Shown here: one piece after another, positions 49,645-58,195 of the stretch
Layout of the letters: each line of letters opens with the position of its first letter
How positions within the stretch are numbered: position 1 is the stretch's first letter
Source of the DNA: the human T2T-CHM13v2.0 reference genome, Homo sapiens
Strand: one strand, 5' to 3'
Assembly: GCF_009914755.1 (NCBI RefSeq)
Contig: NC_060930.1
DNA: 64,000 nt
Notes under the pieces: model-generated
Database searches by the model: none
What the model saw: the letters and a program-made list of their open reading frames with translations, nothing else
What the model was told of the DNA's origin: nothing
Position numbers and translations under genes: made by a program

Positions 49645-50569
49645 CCTATTTATTCATCAAATAGTACTATTATAAGCTTTAGAAATACAGTGAATAAAAC
49701 ATATTCATTTCCTCAATAAAGATAATTTTTATAAGAACATAGGAAGATACACAAACAAGTATTTAAGCATCATGAACCTGTAGGGTAAGATTTAACCTGT
49801 TACGAGGGAGAGAGGCCTATGAAGAGCTTTCAAACACAGAAATTAACAAGTAGACAAGGGGAAGGCACAGAAGAAAGGACATCTGTTATTTGAAATGACA
49901 GAAGGTAGAATTTGAGGACAGAATCAAAACATGAATTCATTTGAACAGAGAATACAGAGCTGATTATAAAGGACTTTATATGTCTTAAGTTTAAGTTAAG
50001 AAGCTTTTAGATTTTTCTTCCAGCATTGGAAATCTATCATTCAAAGGATAACATTGTAACAAATAAAGGATTGCAATTGCTAGTAGCAGTTTAGTAGTAT
50101 GGGGGACAATATTGACTACTAGAAAACAGGTTGATAATATTTGTATACAATTTGGGGAGCAGAAGATTATCATGGGGTTGGTAGTTTCTTTGAGGAGGGG
50201 AAAGGAATGTGAAGAAGTTTAGGGTGATGCTTATGTAATTGACTTGGAAAGAAACTAAAGTAGTAATAGCATTCTGTAAGTTTGGAAAGAGAAGAGAAGG
50301 AAGAGATTTAGGTGACATATACAATATTTGGGTATGAATACAGTCATTAGCAGCCTGTAGGACATCCACAAAGAACTGTCTAATAGGAAGTTTAATGGGT
50401 CATAAATTCCAGAAAAAAAATCAAGAATGGAATATTAGTTTGAAAGTCAATCAGAATATAGTGTGTTAACAAAGATAAAGCTATGAATGAGATGAACCTG
50501 TTTAGATTAATGAAAGATTACATTCGAGGGCAAATTAAGAGAAATTTCAAGAGACTAGGAAGTAGTGTT
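49645..50569 (-). mobile_element. L2 remnant, interrupted by the L1PB and resuming after ~56695
   Basis: ttattcatcaaatag...gaaatacagtgaataaaac; ggacatcca...tgtctaataggaag...ttgaaagtcaatcag...atgaatgagat. Confidence 0.55.
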
Positions 50570-51410
50570 CAAAAATTGAGAGGCAGAAGCACATGCGGCC
50601 AGTGGAACCTGGGATTGGTAGCTGCTGCTGAGGTGGCTATGTCGGCAGTCCAACACCGACTGCCCACAGCAGCTCTTCAAGGGTTCCCCAGAGAGGTACA
50701 AGAAGAGGCATTGGAAGTGTGGTGGTGGAAAACAGCCTCCCACAGTGACTAAAGAATCTGGAATGACTGCAAGAACAAATCAGGAATCCTGAGAGGACCC
50801 ACAGACCCTCTGAAAGAAGCAGACTGCTCCTGCAGCACCCGGAAGACACCCCAAATCCTCACAGCAGCAAGACCTGCCCAAGGAAAGTCTGAGCTCAGAC
50901 ATGCCTAGCCCTGCCCCCACCTGATGGTCCTTCCCTACCTCCCCTGGTAACTGAAGACAAAGGGCATGCACTCTTGGGAGTTCTAGGGTCCTGCCAACCA
51001 CCAGTTCCTCTTCATACTACCCCAGTTGATGTTCTCTGGAAAGTGCCACCTCCTAGCAGGAGGCCAACCGGCACAAAAATAGAACATTAAGCCACCAAAG
51101 CTAAGAACCCTCATAGAGTTCATTTTGCTCCCCTGCCATCTCCACCAGAACAAGTGCTGGTATCCTGAGAGCTGAGAGACCCATAGATGGTTCACATCAC
51201 AGGACTCTGTGCAGATAACCCCCAGTACCTTGTAGACTTGCTGGGTGGCTGGACCCAGAAGAGAGATAACAATCACTGCAGTTAAGATCTCAGGAAGCCA
51301 CATACATAGGAAAAGGGGGAGAGTACTACTTCAAGGGAACACCCGTGGGACAAAAGAATCTGAACAATAGCCTTGAGCCCTAGACCTTCCCTCTAACAGA
51401 GCCTACTCAA

Positions 51411-52424
51411 ATGAGAAGGAACCAGAAAATCAACTCTAGTAAAATGACAAAACAAGACTCTTTAACACCCCCAAAAATATCACTCTAGCTCACCAGCAAT
51501 GGATCCAAACCAAGAAGAAATCCCTGATTTACCTGAAAAAGAATTCAGGAAGTTAGTTATTAATCTAATCAGGGAGATACCAGAGAAAGGCAAAGCCCAA
51601 TACAAGGAAATCTAAAAAACAATACAAGAAGTGAAGGGAGAAATATTCAAGGAAATAGATAACATAAAGAAAAAAAAACAATCAAAACTTCAGGAAACAT
51701 TGGCATTTATAGAAATGCAAGATGCTCTGGAAAGTCTCAGCAATCGAATTGATCAAGTAGAAGAAAGAAATTCAGAGTTCAAAGACAAGGTCTTCGAATT
51801 AACCCAATCCAACAAACACAAAGAAAAAGAATAAGAAAACATGAATAAAACCTCCAAGAAGTCTGGGATTATGTTAAACCACCAAATCTAAGAATAATTG
51901 GTGTTCCTGTAAAAGAAGAGAAATCTAAAAGTTTGGAAAACGTATTTAGGGGAATAATTGAGGAAAGCTTCCCCCACCTTGCTAGAGACCTAGACATCCA
52001 AATACAAGAAACACAACATCTGCGAAATTTATCACGAAAAGACCATTGCCTAGGCACGTTGTCATCAGGCTATCTAAAGTTAAGATGAAGAAAAGAATCT
52101 TAAGAGCGTGAGACAAAAGCACCAGGTAACCTATAAAGGAAAACCTATCAGATTAATAGCAGTTTTCTCAGTAGAAACCCTAGAAGCTAAAGGGATTGGG
52201 GCCCTGTCTTCAGCCTCCTCAAATGAAACAATTATCAGCCAATAATTTTGCATACAGTGAAACTAAACATTATATATGAAGGAAAAATACAGTATTTTTC
52301 AGTTAAACAAATGCTGAGAGAATTCGCCACTACCAACCCACGACTACAAGAACTGCTAAAAGAAGCTGTAAATCTTAAAACAAATCCTGGAAATACATCA
52401 AAACAGAGCCTCTTTAAAACATAA
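51411..52424 (+). pseudogene. Disrupted L1 ORF1p
   Basis: ATG at 51411 (MRRNQK..); coiled-coil remnant ESLSNRIDQVEERNSEFKDKVFELTQ; multiple stops and frameshifts. Confidence 0.88.
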
Positions 52425-52630
52425 ATTTCACAGGACCTTTTATAGGTCCTGTATAATAAAATGTATACATTTATACAATTTATATTTTATAAATACAATA
52501 TAATATTTTGTATTATATTGTATAAATACAATATAATATTTTGTATTATATTGTATAAATACAATATAGAAAGCAGAAACAACAAAACAAAACAAACAAA
52601 CAAAAACAAGGTACACAGGCAACAAATAGC

Positions 52631-55600
52631 AAGATTAATTCTGTGCTACCTCACATCGCAATACTAACATTGAATGTAAATGGCCTAAATACTCCACTTA
52701 AAAGATACAGAATTCCAGAATGGATAAGAACTCTGCAACCATCTGCTACCTTCAGGGGACTCACCTAACACATAAGGACTAACATAAACTTAAAAGTAAA
52801 GGGATGGAAAAAGGCATTTCATGCAAATGGACACCAAAAGTGAGCAGGGATAGCTATTCTTATATCAGAGAAAACAAACTTTAAAGCAACAGCAGTTAAA
52901 AAAGACAAAGAGGTACATTATATAATGGTAAAAGTCTGACAGGAAAATATCATAATCTTAAACATATATGCACCTAACACAGTGGCTCCCAAATTTATAA
53001 AATAATTACTAATAGACCTAAGAAATGAGATAAACAGGAACACAGTAATAGTGGGGGACTTCATTACTCCACTGACAGCACAAGACAGGTTATCAAGACA
53101 GAAAGTCAACAAAGAAACAATGGATTTATACTATACCTTGGAACAAATGGACTTTACATGTATACACAGAACATTTCATCCAACAAACACTGAATTCACA
53201 TTCTATTCAACAGTGCCTGGAACTTTCTACAAGATAGACTATATGATGGTAGGCCACAAAATGAGCTGTAATAAATTTAAGAGAATTGAAATTATATAAA
53301 GCACTCTTTCAGACCACAGTGGAATAAAACTGGAAATCAACTCCAAAAGGAACCTTCAAAACCCTGCAAATACATGGTTTTGCATGTATTTATGCAAATT
53401 AAATAACCTGCTCCTGAATGAGCATTGGGTCAAAAACGAAATCAAGATGGAAATTTAAAAATTCTTCAAACTGAACCACGATAATAGCACAACCTGTCAA
53501 AACCTCGGGGATACAGCAAAGATAGTGCTAGGAGGAAAGTTTATAGCCCTAAATATCTACATCAAAAAGACTGAAATACCACAAACAGACAATCTAAGGT
53601 CACACCTCAAGGAACTAGAGAAACAAGAGCAAACCAAACCTAAACCCAGCAGAAGAAATAACCAATATCAGAGCAGAACTAAATGAAATTGAAACAAACA
53701 AAAAATACAAAAGATAAATGAAACATAAAGCTGGTTCTCTGAAAAGATAAAGAAAAAAAGATAGACCATTAGCAAAATTAACGAAGAAAAGAAGAGAGAA
53801 AACCCAAATAACCTCATTAAGACATGAAACAGGAGATATTACCACTCACACCACTGAAATACAAAAGATCATTCAAAGCTACTATGAACACCTTTACACA
53901 CATAAATTAGAAAACCTAGAAGACATGGATAAATTCCTGGAAAAATACAATCCTTCTAACTTAAAACAGGAAGAATTAGATACCCTGAACAGACCCATAA
54001 CAAGCAGTAAGATTTAAATGGTAATTTAAAAATTACCAAAAAAAAAATGTCCAGGACCAGATGTATTTACAGAAGAATTCTATCAGACATTTAAAGAAGA
54101 ATTGGTAGCAATACTTTTGACATTATTCCACAAGATAGAAAAAGAGGAAACCCTCCCTAAATCATTCTATGAAGCCAGTATCACCCTATTGCCAAAACCA
54201 GGAAAGGACCTAACCAAAATGAAAACTACAGACTGATATACCTGATGAACATAGATGCTAATACCTTTAACAAAATACTAGCTAACCGAATCCAACAACA
54301 TATAAAAAAGATAATCAACAATGATCAAGTGGGTTTCATACCAGGGATGCACAGATGGTTTAACATATGCAAGTCAATAAATGTGATACAACACATAAAC
54401 AGAATTAAAACCAAAAATCACATGATTATCTCAATAGATGCAGAAAAAGCATTCAACAAAATCCAGTATCCCTTTATGATTAAAACTCTCAGCAAAATCG
54501 GCATACACGGGACATACCTCAATGTAATAAAAGCCATCTATGACAAACCCACAGCCAACATAATACTGAATGGGGAAAAGTTGAAAGCATTCCCTCTGAG
54601 AACTGCAACAAGAAAAGGATGCCAGCTCTCACCACTCTTCAACATAGTACTGGAGGTCCTAGCCAGAGCAATCAGACAAGAGAAAGAAATAAAGGGCATC
54701 CAAATCAGTAAAGAGGAAGTCAAACTGTCACTGTTTGCTAACAATATAATCGTTTACCTAGAAAATCCTAAAGACTTCTCCAGAAAGCTCCTAGAACTGA
54801 TAAAAGAAGTCAGCAAAGTTTCCGGATAATAGAGTAATGCACACAAATCCGTAGCTCTTCTATACACCAACAGCAACCAAGTGGGGAATCAAATTAAGAA
54901 CTCAATCCTTTTTACAATAGGTGCAAAAAAAAAATACTTAGGAATATACCTAACCAAAGGGGCAAAAGACCTCTAAAGGAAAGCTACAAAACACTGCTGA
55001 AAGAAGTCATAGAAGGCATAAACAAATGAAAACACATTTTGTGCTCGTGGATGGGTAGAATCAATATGGTGAAAATGGCCATACTGCCAAAAGCAATCTA
55101 CAAATTCAATGCAATCCCTATCAAAATACCAGCATCATTCTTCACAGAATTAGAAAAAACAATTCTAAAATTCATATGGAACCAAAAAAGAACCTGCATA
55201 GCCAAAGAAAGACTAAACAAAAAGAACAAATCTGGAGGCATCACAGTACCTGATTTCAAAATATAAGGCCATAGTCACCAGAACAGCGTGGTACTGGTAT
55301 CAAAATAGTCACATAGACCAATGGAACAGAATAGAGAACCCAGAAATAAACCCAAATACTTACAGCCAACTGATCTTCGACAAAACAAACAAAAAAATAA
55401 AGTGGGGAAAGGACTACCTTTTCAACAAATTGTGCTGGGATAATGGGTTAGCCACATGTAGGAGAATGAAACTGGATCCTCTTCTCTCACCTTATACGAA
55501 AATTAACTCAAGATGGATTATGTATTTAAATCTAAGACATGAAACTATAAAAATTCTACAAGATAACATTGGAAAAACCCTTCTAGACATTGGCTCAGGC

Positions 55601-56443
55601 AAGGATTTCATGACCAAGAACCCATAAAGCAAATGCAATAAAAACAAAGATAAATAGCTCAGACTTAATTAAATTGAGGAGCTTTTGCATGGCAAAAATA
55701 ACTGTCAGCAGAGTAAACAGACAACCCACATAGTCGGAAAAAATTTTCACAATCTATACATCTGACAAAGGACTGATATCCAGAATCTACAATGATCAAG
55801 CGAATCAGTAAGAAAAAAACCCAACAATTCCATCAAAAAGTGGGCTAAGGACATGAATAGACCATTCTCAAAAGTATATATACAAATGGCCAACAAACAC
55901 ATGAAACAATGCTCAACATCACTAATGATCATGGAAATACAAATCAAAACCACAATGCAATACCACCTTACTCCTGCAAGAATGGCCATAATGAAAAAAT
56001 CAAAAAACAGTAGATATTGGTGTGGATATGGTGATCAAGGAACACTTCTACACTGTTGGTGGGAATGTAAACTAGTACAGTCGCTGTGGAAAACAGTGTG
56101 GAGATTCCTTAAACAACTAAAAGTAGAGCTACCATTTGATCCAGCAATCTCACTACTGAGTATCTACCCAGAGGAAAAGAAATCATTATACAAAAAAAGA
56201 TACTTGCACACACATTTTTACAGCAGCACAATTCACAATTGCGAAACCTTGAAGCCAACCCAAATGTCCATCAATCAACAAGTGGATAAAGAAACTGTGG
56301 TATATTTATACGATGGAATACTACTCAGCCATAAAAAGGAATGAATTAACAACATTCCCAGAGACCTGGATGAGGTTCTAAGTGAAGTAACTCAGGAATG
56401 GAAAATCAAATATCGTATTTTCTCACTGATATATGGGAGCTAA
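52631..56443 (+). pseudogene. Disrupted L1 ORF2p (endonuclease, reverse transcriptase, C-terminal domain)
   Basis: [37 protein letters not shown] (dead FADD motif), [12 protein letters not shown] fragments in several frames. Confidence 0.93.
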
Positions 56444-58195
56444 GCTACGAAGATGCAAAGGCATAACAATGACACAATGGACTTTGGGGAGTTGGGGGAA
56501 GGATGGGAGGGAGGCAAGGGTTAAAGACTACAAATAAGTTGAAGTATATACTGTTCAGGTTATGGGTGCACCACAATCTCACAAATCACCACCAAAGAAC
56601 TTACTCATGTAACCAAACATCACCTGTACCCCAATAACCTTTGAAAAAATTAAAGAAGAATTTGTATATGAAAAAAAAAAACAAATATTGAGAGCCAAAC
56701 CAAGTTCAAAAACAAACAGTAAATGTCCGATAGTGTCACTGGAGTTTAAATAACCTGGTAACAGATAAATGTTTATTGGATTTAGTCAAAAGAAAGGAAA
56801 CCGTCATGTTGGTCATAAAAATTTTCTTGGAAAGTATAAGGTTTACAGAAGTTTGCGGAAACAAATAATTATGGATATCAAAAATTAAAAGTTAAATCTT
56901 TCAGAAAGTTTTCTATGAATGTAAGAAAGAGGCAATGTAGTACAGCAGATGGTCAGGTAATCAAGTAAATTCTTCTGTGTTAGTGGGAGAAAATTAAGTT
57001 CATATAAATGAAAGAAGCTAGTGAATAAATTTTAAAAATAAATGAAATGGAATAATCAATTAATCATCGATCCAGAAAATGAAAGAGTATGAAGTATAAA
57101 TGGAATGAGTAGCTATAAGAACTAGGAAAATTTTCTATTTTGTTTTATTTTATCCATTATATCTCTTATTCCACAAGAAGAGATGTGGAAAGGATGAATT
57201 CAGGCCCTAAATTTTTAGGATTCATATCAAGATGTTAAGTCATTTTCCATCTGGTTGTGTCTATGTGCTGTATGTAAGGAGGTGAAATCTTTTCAAAATG
57301 AAGGTAACTTGGTATGCATAGGATTTAGATGATTTGAACAGTTTGAATAGCCACTTGTAAGACAGAGAGAGATGATATAGGAAAACAGAAGAATGGCTGC
57401 ATTGAGAATACAATGGGCATTAAAGCAATGTATGTCGACATTTGAAGTAATTTCGATTTTTCTAATAATGTCTAGCAAACTGAGTGCATGCACAGAGAAG
57501 TCCAAGGAGGGGTTAATTCTTGATTGGGTTGTAGTGGTTGGGTGTGATTAAAGCTTATTCTTAAACATACTTTTTTTGCACATATTAAAAGACACTAGCT
57601 CTATTTGCTGTACTCAGTCCAGTTCTAAGGAGATAGTGTCACATTTTCACTTATTGAGTGAGGGTCTCTCTGGACACGACTCAGTAAAATTTTTCTTAGC
57701 TTCAATGCTTTACTCAGAACAGTTGATCTATAGCAGAATAGCTTTTAAGGTTGTCTGGAGAAAAAAAAAATGTCTAAACAGGCTGAGATAATTAGCTGTG
57801 CCTGTCATATTCTCTGAACTCTGAAAGTCTGAATTGGTGATATGACATAAAGAACAGGAGCGAGCCAAATATATAAAGAAAAAGCACAAAAATACTTACC
57901 CAAGAGAATATGAGCTATAGGTGAGGTAAAAATAAAGATAGTTTGAAATAGAATCAAGTAATGATGAGTAATCAATAAAACACTGCTCCTGGGGTCCCAA
58001 AAGGATGACTTTCTTCCTAAAGCCACTTTAGATCATTAACAATATATGAAATCAACTAATGTAAGATGTATTCTCTTGGTGAGGCCTGGTTGTATACTCT
58101 GAATTCTGGCTAGGTGGCTGAGATTTCTGTTTGCTTTATGTCTGGGTCTTTATTACAAAATTCCATTACTAAGACAATCTGAATGAGCCCCTATT

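What the first reader, a model, noticed from the sequence alone, without database searches (positions are those of the whole stretch)
50583..50761. ~180-nt non-L1 leader inside the L1PB TSDs: candidate 5' transduction of a host first exon
Seen: the left TSD ends at 50582, but recognisable L1PB 5'UTR begins only at ~50762 (aatgactgcaagaacaaatcagg). The intervening 179 nt is far more GC-rich than the flanks, retains CpGs, begins with a G right after the TSD, and opens with gcacatgcg, one CpG-decay step from the NRF1-type gcgcatgcg. Knowledge: L1s transcribed from upstream host promoters can carry 5' transductions, and a 5' G can derive from the mRNA cap. Inference: this copy came from a host-promoter-driven chimeric RNA and could belong to an unannotated chimeric L1PB lineage.
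Basis: partly seen in the sequence, partly recalled or inferred. Interest (0 to 1): 0.8.

Follow-up and report, generated by a model that had tools for sequence, protein, structure and literature searches.

The report
PI4KB exons fused to old L1

Summary
Window 50583-50761 is unique in the genome apart from two chr1 pieces 7.25 kb apart. Those pieces are bounded there by GT and AG, so the leader is an intron-less copy of exon 1 plus the first 66 nt of exon 2 of PI4KB, a CpG-island gene. One 13-nt target-site duplication (12 of 13) encloses the leader, an L1PB-type element and its poly(A), which points to a single L1-mediated insertion. The L1 lacks only about its first 94 nt. It starts 4-6 nt after the L1PB splice acceptor used by a published CREM-L1PB1 chimera and by an Alu-L1PB chimera found here. 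On the host side the join lies inside exon 2, with no GT in today's human sequence. How the two RNAs were joined therefore stays open: a fusion transcript from the PI4KB promoter (about 0.6), or template switching or RNA ligation (about 0.3). No L1 lies in the PI4KB locus now, and no sibling copy carries the leader, so there is no chimeric lineage. The NRF1 idea is not supported. This is a new member of a known, rare class (17 catalogued in 2026, PI4KB not among them).

The parts
50570..50582 (+). Left target-site duplication caaaaattgagag, preceded by tt (cleavage context TT/CAAA)
   Evidence: the 13-mer with up to 1 mismatch occurs only at 50570 and 56682 in the window.
50583..50583 (+). Extra 5' G not templated by chr1. 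Positions 50584-50585 (ca) align to chr1 only if a 2-nt gap is allowed.
   Evidence: Global alignment; chr1 sequence.
50584..50693 (+). Copy of PI4KB exon 1 (5'UTR). The ungapped match is 50586-50693 = C1:150451076-150450969, 87 of 108 identical. chr1 continues gtaagc after the last copied base.
50694..50759 (+). Copy of the first 66 nt of PI4KB exon 2 (C1:150443715-150443650). chr1 has tttcag just before the first copied base. After the last copied base chr1 continues ctaggcc, which is not a GT.
50760..50761 (+). Junction dinucleotide gg of ambiguous origin. The host reads ct here and L1 siblings read ag (one sibling, L008, reads gg).
   Evidence: Alignments A1 and A2
50762..51848 (+). L1PB-type 5'UTR starting about 95 nt into the element, just after ...TTTTAGCTCCAG in siblings. 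It is the short form: the roughly 630-nt segment seen in long-form copies is absent at 50859|50860.
51849..52424 (+). Decayed ORF1: Transposase_22 RBD-like domain at 51849-52088 and dsRBD-like domain at 52227-52424.
   Evidence: E 4.7e-10 and 2.7e-14
54173..54829 (+). Decayed ORF2 reverse-transcriptase domain (RVT_1)
   Evidence: E 1.5e-27
56671..56681 (+). Poly(A) tail of 11 A
56682..56694 (+). Right target-site duplication caaatattgagag (12 of 13 identical to the left copy)

Best explanation
Window 50583-56681 is one L1-mediated (target-primed reverse transcription) insertion of a chimeric template. At the 5' end is the capped 5' end of a spliced PI4KB transcript: exon 1 plus the first 66 nt of exon 2, about 176 nt plus an untemplated G. 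This is joined in sense to an L1PB-type element that lacks only its first ~94 nt and kept ORF1, ORF2 and its poly(A).

Shown: the PI4KB origin, removal of the intron at GT...AG, a single TSD pair around the whole, and the L1 breakpoint next to the L1PB acceptor cluster TTTTAG|CTCCAG|.

Inferred: the two parts were already one RNA, transcribed from the PI4KB CpG-island promoter, and the L1 proteins copied it in cis. There are two routes to such an RNA. In the first, PI4KB RNA was spliced (in cis or in trans) into the L1PB acceptor cluster, and the junction was later blurred or shortened. In the second, a nearly full-length L1PB had landed in PI4KB exon 2 on an allele that has since been lost.

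The copy left no detectable progeny and has decayed. I hold the origin and the single-event structure at about 0.95. I hold the one-fusion-RNA reading at about 0.6, and that is the figure given as the confidence.
For: 1. The genome search with the 179 nt finds only the window itself and two chr1 minus-strand pieces: query 4-111 at 81% and query 110-177 at 90% (alignments).
2. In chr1 the first piece ends cccccagag|gtaagc and the second starts tttcag|acgtacaag. A 7,253-nt GT-AG intron is therefore missing from the copy.
3. The next coding exon downstream matches PDB chains named phosphatidylinositol 4-kinase beta, E 7.8e-119.
4. The region around the inferred RNA 5' end is a CpG island, GC 0.60-0.64 and observed/expected 0.64-0.65.
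5. Of 28 differences in 174 aligned nt, 12 are at CpG sites. The parent has 13 CpGs and the copy has 3.
6. The TSD and the poly(A) enclose leader plus L1. No PI4KB sequence follows the L1.
7. 27 of 27 other L1PB loci that hold the first 97 nt of the window's L1 part also carry the ~95-nt L1 5' terminus just upstream. Only the window copy and the CREM chimera lack it.
8. The L1 start lies 6 nt after the start of the L1 part in the CREM-L1PB1 chimera (Law and Burns, PMC13174262, Table S5 read; checked in this genome). It lies the same 6 nt after the L1 start in an Alu-donor/L1PB chimera found here. In both of those a GT donor is joined to TTTTAG|.
9. The L1 keeps ORF1 and ORF2 remnants. Law and Burns report that mRNA/L1 chimeras are mostly nearly full length, unlike U6/L1 chimeras, as expected if the fusion RNA had to encode its own proteins.
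10. The L1 5'UTR of this copy also lacks a segment that is bounded GTGAGT...CACAG in long-form copies.
Against: - The host side of the join is in the middle of exon 2. Human chr1 continues ctaggcc after ...aaagaatct, so there is no GT donor.
- Two bases (gg, 50760-50761) are explained by neither partner. The most economical L1 start (50760 or 50761) is 1-2 nt before the AG| boundary, which splicing would not give.
- No L1 homology exists in C1:150383001-150452500, so no source element can be shown.
- About 10% of positions in this 5'UTR follow an AG, so lying 'next to an AG' is weak evidence on its own. Closeness to the proven acceptor would arise by chance about 1% of the time, by my estimate (13 positions out of about 1,180).
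- Only one copy exists, so recurrent activity of a fusion source cannot be shown.
Confidence: 0.6

Rival explanations
1. Two separate RNAs were joined at or just before reverse transcription. One route is that the L1 reverse transcriptase, having copied an L1PB RNA almost to its 5' end, switched template to a PI4KB mRNA fragment and ran to its cap. This is the route proposed for U6/L1 and other chimeric retrogenes. The other route is that an RNA ligase joined a PI4KB 5' fragment to an L1 RNA.
For: - The host breakpoint is inside exon 2 with no GT.
- One or two unassigned G's sit at the junction, like the non-templated or cap-derived bases seen at template ends. The same kind of extra G sits at the very 5' end (50583).
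- tc/ct microhomology is possible at 50757-50759.
- No L1 lies in the PI4KB locus, and there is a single copy only.
- Law and Burns list template switching and RNA ligation as accepted routes to sense-oriented chimeras.
Against: - A template switch can fall anywhere along the L1. U6/L1 chimeras are often truncated (figure legend), whereas this L1 lacks only ~94 nt and keeps both ORFs.
- The L1 breakpoint falls within 6 nt of an acceptor used by two other chimeras with proper GT donors. I estimate that as about a 1% coincidence.
- The switch would need a PI4KB RNA 3' end, or an internal landing site, 66 nt into exon 2.
Confidence: 0.3
2. This is a classical read-through 5' transduction: a source L1PB still present in or beside PI4KB was transcribed from the upstream promoter together with contiguous genomic flank.
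For: The leader starts at the 5' end of the gene's first exon, and the orientation is sense.
Against: - The leader is spliced, not contiguous genomic DNA.
- blastn of window 50400-56800 against C1:150383001-150452500 gives only the two exon hits, with no L1.
Confidence: 0.03
3. The leader was already at this chr6 site, as a partial PI4KB retrocopy or a DNA-level duplication, and the L1 later landed next to it.
For: None directly. I could not examine the orthologous empty site, because no other primate genome is on hand.
Against: - The only TSD pair encloses both parts. No repeat of the bases just before 50762 is found after the poly(A).
- There is no poly(A) between the leader and the L1, and no PI4KB sequence after the L1.
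- The leader holds only exon sequence, with no promoter or intron.
- A 176-nt 5' fragment of an mRNA with no tail is not what ordinary retrocopying gives.
Confidence: 0.03
4. The 179 nt are simply the normal 5' end of an L1PB subfamily.
For: None.
Against: - 27 of 27 other loci carry a different, shared ~95-nt 5' terminus.
- The leader gives only chance matches to 29 x 1500 nt of sibling upstream sequence.
- It is single-copy in the genome apart from PI4KB.
Confidence: 0.01

Closest known systems
CREM-L1PB1 chimeric insertion, hg38 chr6:105234605-105241723 (Law and Burns, Cell Genomics 2026, PMC13174262, Table S5). I read main-text passages, the matching sections of the bioRxiv version and the supplement, and checked the locus here as L045.
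   Same: - The first two exons of a host gene lie in sense in front of a nearly full-length L1PB-type element.
- One TSD pair encloses the whole, and extra G('s) sit at the 5' end.
- The L1 part begins in the same acceptor cluster: CREM at CTCCAG, this copy 6 nt later.
- The first 99 nt of the two L1 parts are 91% identical.
   Different: - The CREM exon ends exactly at a GT donor and joins TTTTAG|CTCCAG cleanly. Here the host part stops inside exon 2 with no GT, and two G's are unassigned.
- The CREM L1 has the long 5'UTR form and this one has the short form.
RAP1GDS1-L1PA2 chimeras, described as promoter co-option by an intronic, splice-deleted L1 (Law and Burns; section read)
   Same: Host exons 1-2 from an active, broadly expressed promoter are fused to a 5'-compromised L1 that keeps both ORFs. 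That L1's 5'UTR also carries a splice-type internal deletion.
   Different: In that case the source L1 is still present in the gene's intron, the junction uses a donor and a cryptic acceptor, and several progeny exist. Here there is no source, no donor and no progeny.
U6/L1 and other template-switch or ligation chimeras (as summarised by Law and Burns; the earlier literature is recalled, not read)
   Same: A two-part, sense-oriented retrocopy with one TSD pair and a poly(A) only at the 3' end.
   Different: In those chimeras the 5' part is a small non-coding RNA and the L1 part is usually strongly truncated. Here the 5' part is the capped end of a spliced mRNA and the L1 is nearly complete.
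Exon capture by SVA (MAST2 exon 1 in the SVA-F1 group).
   Same: The first exon of a CpG-island gene is placed in front of a retrotransposon through RNA.
   Different: That fusion is reported to have founded a spreading subfamily and to use a regular donor-acceptor pair. This one is a single dead copy.

Membership tests
mRNA/LINE-1 5' chimeric insertion ('5' transduction' class of Law and Burns 2026) | Unique non-L1 sequence lies directly 5' of an L1, in sense, and maps to exons of a gene elsewhere with introns removed | tested here: met
   PI4KB exon 1 plus 66 nt of exon 2, with the 7,253-nt GT-AG intron absent.
mRNA/LINE-1 5' chimeric insertion ('5' transduction' class of Law and Burns 2026) | One TSD pair flanks the composite, with a poly(A) at the L1 3' end and an endonuclease-like cleavage context | tested here: met
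   13-nt TSD, 12 of 13 identical; 11 A; TT/CAAA. The same cleavage context is listed for the CNOT1 case in Table S5.
mRNA/LINE-1 5' chimeric insertion ('5' transduction' class of Law and Burns 2026) | The leader and the L1 arrive in the same branch of a multi-species alignment | not testable with these tools
   No other primate genome is on hand.
Splice-mediated exon capture (cis or trans) | The host part ends exactly at a GT donor | tested here: not met
   chr1 continues ctaggcc. By consensus the likely exon 2 donor (aag|gtgatg) lies 59 nt further on.
Splice-mediated exon capture (cis or trans) | The L1 part begins exactly after an AG acceptor | tested here: inconclusive
   siblings read TTTTAG|CTCCAG|AAYG. 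The window L1 can be read as starting at 50762 (after the AG) or at 50760/50761 (inside it). The first AG is used by the CREM and Alu chimeras.
Classical read-through 5' transduction | The transduced DNA is contiguous with a source L1 at the parent locus | tested here: not met
   no L1 homology in 69.5 kb of the PI4KB locus. The leader is spliced.
Template-switch chimeric retrogene | Two-part sense structure, common TSD, and no internal poly(A) | tested here: met
   These features do not separate this family from a fusion RNA.
Template-switch chimeric retrogene | The join was made by the reverse transcriptase rather than at the RNA level | not testable with these tools
   The sequence of one old copy cannot tell. 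The junction gg and the microhomology are compatible with it.
L1PB-type LINE-1 | Homology to other L1PB-annotated 5'UTRs, plus ORF1 and ORF2 domains | tested here: met
   - 91% over 99 nt and 84% over 103 nt to the element that Law and Burns list as L1PB1.
- 2350 candidates, 40 scored, at 80-90% identity.
- Pfam domains.
- The exact subfamily name was not tested, because no Dfam or RepeatMasker is available here.
   only the window copy; this junction is seen once.

The most novel reading that the evidence does not exclude
The L1PB 5'UTR carries a hot exon-capture site, the acceptor cluster TTTTAG|CTCCAG| at about nt 89-95. This site repeatedly spliced L1PB RNA onto upstream donors: CREM exon 2, an Alu donor, and, with a junction later blurred or shortened, PI4KB exon 2. 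On this reading the PI4KB copy is a preserved failed attempt at replacing the 5'UTR or promoter. Splice capture of first exons from CpG-island genes would then be a general route by which primate L1 lineages swapped their 5'UTRs.
Probability: 0.3. Interest if true: 0.6.

Novelty: new member of a known kind. Interest (0 to 1): 0.45.

Why it matters
Host-exon/L1 chimeras are rare: the 2026 catalogue lists 17 in the human genome. They are the only direct traces of how L1 elements might pick up new promoters, an old open point in L1 evolution.

This copy adds an uncatalogued case with a housekeeping CpG-island gene, PI4KB. Together with the CREM case and the Alu case found here, it points to one short stretch of the L1PB 5'UTR as a repeated joining site.

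It has no sign of present function. It lies in a gene desert, its ORFs are decayed, its CpGs are mostly lost and it has no progeny. Its value is as evidence about mechanism, not as a working element.

Tried and rejected
- **The repeat finder.** It did not list the TSD among its 20 largest of 48 families. I read the TSD and tested it.
- **NRF1 site.** The parent reads gcgcaggcg, so I rejected this idea.
- **Cryptic donor at the host breakpoint.** No GT, GC or AT follows ...aatct in chr1. Shifting the alignment by a 2-3-nt deletion gives no donor either.
- **Source L1 in PI4KB.** None was found in 69.5 kb.
- **Sibling copies with the leader.** None were found.
- **Descent of the short 5'UTR form.** I built a tree of 30 copies over 1,399 columns to ask whether the window's short form descends from a short-form subfamily. 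The tree is star-like, with 4 starred branches out of 27. The window groups weakly (55/87) with 9 of 11 long-form rows and 3 short-form rows, so this is unresolved.
- **False leads from the pattern scan.** L047 is a rearranged L1 5'UTR. L048 and L049 are chance 20-21-nt matches, and L050 is an L1 with internal deletions.
- **Literature searches for this chimera.**
  - (PI4KB + LINE-1 + chimeric): one unrelated review.
  - (at least 2 of PI4KB, PIK4CB, L1PB, retrocopy, chimeric retrogene): 38 papers. None of the 10 listed pairs the gene with L1.
  - no PI4KB, and no matching chr6 or chr1 coordinates, in the 4 supplementary files of PMC13174262.
- **Not run.** I ran no structure or complex prediction, because it would not bear on the finding.

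Full report
**Observation.** The left target-site duplication (TSD), caaaaattgagag, occupies 50570-50582. The same 13-mer with one mismatch, caaatattgagag, lies at 56682-56694, directly after an 11-A tail at 56671-56681. With up to one mismatch this 13-mer occurs at only these two places in the 64-kb window. The bases before the left copy are tt, giving TT/CAAA. Between the left TSD and the first L1-like bases lie 179 nt with GC 0.559, against 0.338 and 0.288 in the 500-nt flanks. This is no richer than the L1 5'UTR that follows (0.528). The 179 nt hold 3 CpGs. The element behind them is an L1 on the + strand, with decayed ORF1 domains (Transposase_22 and Tnp_22_dsRBD) and an RVT_1 domain.

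**What the leader is.** A search of the window's own genome with 50583-50761 returned three candidates, all of them scored. They were the window itself and two pieces on the minus strand of contig 1: C1:150450969-150451076 (query 4-111, 81%) and C1:150443650-150443717 (query 110-177, 90%) (alignments 87/108 and 61/68).
- In chr1 the first piece is followed by gtaagc and the second is preceded by tttcag. The copy therefore lacks a 7,253-nt GT-AG intron, and the exon join falls at 50693|50694.
- About 3.4 kb further down the same strand lies a long open exon. Its translation matches PDB chains named phosphatidylinositol 4-kinase beta (4d0l, E 7.8e-119). The parent gene is PI4KB.
- The region around the inferred RNA 5' end is a CpG island, GC 0.60-0.64 and observed/expected 0.64-0.65.
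- Of 28 differences in 174 ungapped positions, 12 lie at CpG sites. The parent has 13 CpGs and the copy has 3. The non-CpG distance is 0.117. This fits an old, unconstrained copy of a CpG-island exon.
- The first base, G at 50583, is not templated by chr1. Similar extra 5' bases are listed for several catalogued chimeras.

**What the L1 part is.** A search with 50762-51161 gave 2350 candidates. Of these, 40 were scored, at 80-90% identity, and 29 non-self loci were kept.
- 18 of the 29 align from query position 1-12 and share a further ~91-110 nt upstream that ends ...GAATTTTAGCTCCAG.
- With a probe from one sibling, 27 of 27 other loci that hold the first 97 nt of the window's L1 part carry this 5' terminus directly upstream. 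Only the window copy and the CREM chimera lack it. Two further loci held no such region and are not counted.
- The leader has no similarity to 29 x 1500 nt of sibling upstream sequence beyond 11-15-nt matches at E >= 0.87.
- The L1 therefore lacks only about its first 94 nt, and the leader is not L1.

**Single event.** blastn of window 50400-56800 against C1:150383001-150452500 (69.5 kb) gives only the two exon hits. This shows four things: no promoter or intron DNA came along, no PI4KB sequence follows the L1, no L1 related to this one lies in the gene today, and the leader is RNA-derived. With one TSD pair around the leader, the L1 and the tail, and no internal tail, the simplest reading is one target-primed reverse-transcription event on a chimeric template.

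**Known class.** Law and Burns describe 17 mRNA- or lncRNA-LINE-1 5' chimeras in hg38. For the bioRxiv version (10.1101/2025.02.02.635956) I read the outline and two sections and ran a term search. For the Cell Genomics 2026 version (PMC13174262) I read passages and all of Table S5.
- These chimeras are mostly first exons in sense orientation and mostly nearly full-length L1s.
- Six end at splice donors. In four the donor could not be judged because of untemplated bases. One has an acceptor without a donor.
- 15 of the 17 gene loci hold no intronic L1.
- The genes listed are ZNF681, ENSG00000291032, SATB1-AS1, FHIT, CDC42, MAP3K13, RAP1GDS1 (twice), RPL21, PALLD, CREM, FHIP1A, ENSG00000257948, ANKAR, ENSG00000233928, TPK1 and CNOT1. 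PI4KB is absent, and no chr6 102.8-103.1 Mb or chr1 151.2-151.3 Mb coordinates occur in the four supplementary files.
- Other searches found no report of this chimera.
- Supplementary figures were not available to me.

**The junction.** The CREM-L1PB1 chimera in that table begins its L1 part at CTCCAGATTGACTG, directly after a GT-donor exon end. I located it in this genome and aligned it. Siblings read TTTTAG|CTCCAG|AAYGACTG. The CREM L1 starts after the first AG, and the window L1 starts 6 nt later, after the second.

I then scanned the genome with 14-15 free positions followed by the 20-mer at window 50765-50784, allowing up to 2 mismatches. One search gave 186 matches with the first 100 listed. 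One search gave 52 and one search gave 50, all listed. Among the listed rows, three have foreign sequence abutting this cluster:
- the window copy;
- the CREM chimera;
- C4:24331896 (L046), where the first ~65 nt of an Alu end at ...CACCTGAG. In 3 of the 5 window Alus aligned, the bases at that point are GT (A4). The L1 there begins CTCTAGATCGACTG.

Two independent chimeras thus join a GT donor to the first AG, which marks it as a working acceptor.

The PI4KB join differs. The host part stops 66 nt into exon 2, and chr1 continues ctaggcc. The likely exon 2 donor, aag|gtgatg, is 59 nt further on; this is my reading from the consensus and is not an annotation. The two bases gg at 50760-50761 match neither partner, although sibling L008 reads gg there.

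**Weighing the mechanisms.**
- About 10% of positions in this 5'UTR follow an AG. Falling within 6 nt of the proven acceptor is roughly a 1% coincidence under a random breakpoint, by my estimate.
- A splice with no donor is about as unlikely, unless a regular splice from the exon 2 donor to the first AG was later shortened by a deletion of about 63 nt plus one transition. I also put that at about 1%.
- The near-complete L1 with both ORFs fits a fusion RNA that had to supply its own proteins. It fits a template switch less well, since a switch can fall anywhere.
- The same copy also lacks a ~630-nt 5'UTR segment that long-form copies bound with ACT|GTGAGT...CCCACAG|CAGCTG. This hints that the RNA passed through the spliceosome. 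However, the window's own internal join keeps cacag and is not the exact predicted exon join, and the tree could not tell whether this loss was independent.
- I put a PI4KB-promoter fusion RNA at about 0.6. That covers splicing into the cluster, or an L1 that had landed in exon 2 of a lost allele. I put template switching or RNA ligation at about 0.3, and other readings at about 0.1.

**Age and fate.** The window's end branch in the L1 tree is 0.081, equal to the median. The leader-to-parent non-CpG distance is 0.117 over both branches. With commonly used primate rates, which I recall rather than computed here, this means some tens of millions of years, in line with the 7-80 Mya that Law and Burns give for L1P families. 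No second copy carries the leader. The CCAAT-like ggccaatgg of the parent reads ggccagtgg in the copy, and the ORFs are broken. There is no sign of a chimeric lineage or of present function.

**Verdict.** This is a real, well-supported host-exon/L1 chimera. It is a new member of a rare known class, and its joining mechanism is unresolved.

Noticed in passing
L046 (G000:C4:24331850-24332550, minus strand), junction at about C4:24331920: An Alu/L1PB chimera. The first ~65 nt of an Alu end at ...gatcacctgag, where 3 of the 5 window Alus aligned continue GT. They are joined to ctctagatcgactgcaag, the same L1PB acceptor (TTTTAG|) as in the CREM chimera. No chr4 24.31-24.36 Mb coordinates occur in the Law and Burns supplements, though the hg38 offset for chr4 is unknown to me.
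   Followed up: partly
window 50859|50860; L045:754-1383; loci L005-L033: L1PB-type 5'UTRs come in a long and a short form. The long form (11 of 29 loci, plus L045) has an extra ~630-675 nt bounded ACT|GTGAGT ... CCCACAG|CAGCTG. The short form (18 of 29 loci, plus the window) therefore looks like a spliced, SpIRE-like product.

The join in L008 is the exact predicted exon join. In L018 it is shifted by 3 nt to the next AG. The window and L016 keep cacag. On a weakly resolved tree the short form is scattered (at least 6 changes), which hints at repeated independent splicing.

Larson et al. 2018 (PMC5860796, passages read) looked for L1PA-type SpIREs only and found none in L1PB. My sample is biased towards short forms, because the query itself was short-form.
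   Followed up: partly
window 52480-52578: Three tandem copies of a 33-nt AT-rich unit (100%, 97% and 76%) lie inside the L1, just past the ORF1 remnants. They sit in the lowest-GC stretch of the element (GC 0.185).
   Followed up: no
L047 (G000:C6:8470850-8471650) and C6:8472451: A rearranged L1 5'UTR: a downstream 5'UTR segment is placed directly in front of gactgcaagaac. A second, canonical copy of the same 5'UTR region lies in the opposite orientation about 900 nt away.
   Followed up: partly
G000:C4:147231523, 147341807 and 147463108: Three identical L1 5'UTR rows share the same ~12-nt deletion of the acceptor cluster (…catgaacttt|gactgcagg). They lie 110-120 kb apart, so they are probably one element copied by segmental duplication.
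   Followed up: no
L045:514-535 and L043:1501-1516: In this genome the upstream TSD of the CREM chimera reads cgaaagaactggagtg, whereas the downstream copy and the published table read agaaagaactggagtg. This is why the exact-pattern search found only one copy on chr6.
   Followed up: no
L003 (C1:150443716-150443830, minus strand): An Alu tail (…gcctgggcgacagagcgagactccgtctcaaaaag…) ends about 25 nt before the acceptor of PI4KB exon 2, so the polypyrimidine/acceptor region of this 5'UTR exon sits right beside a repeat.
   Followed up: no
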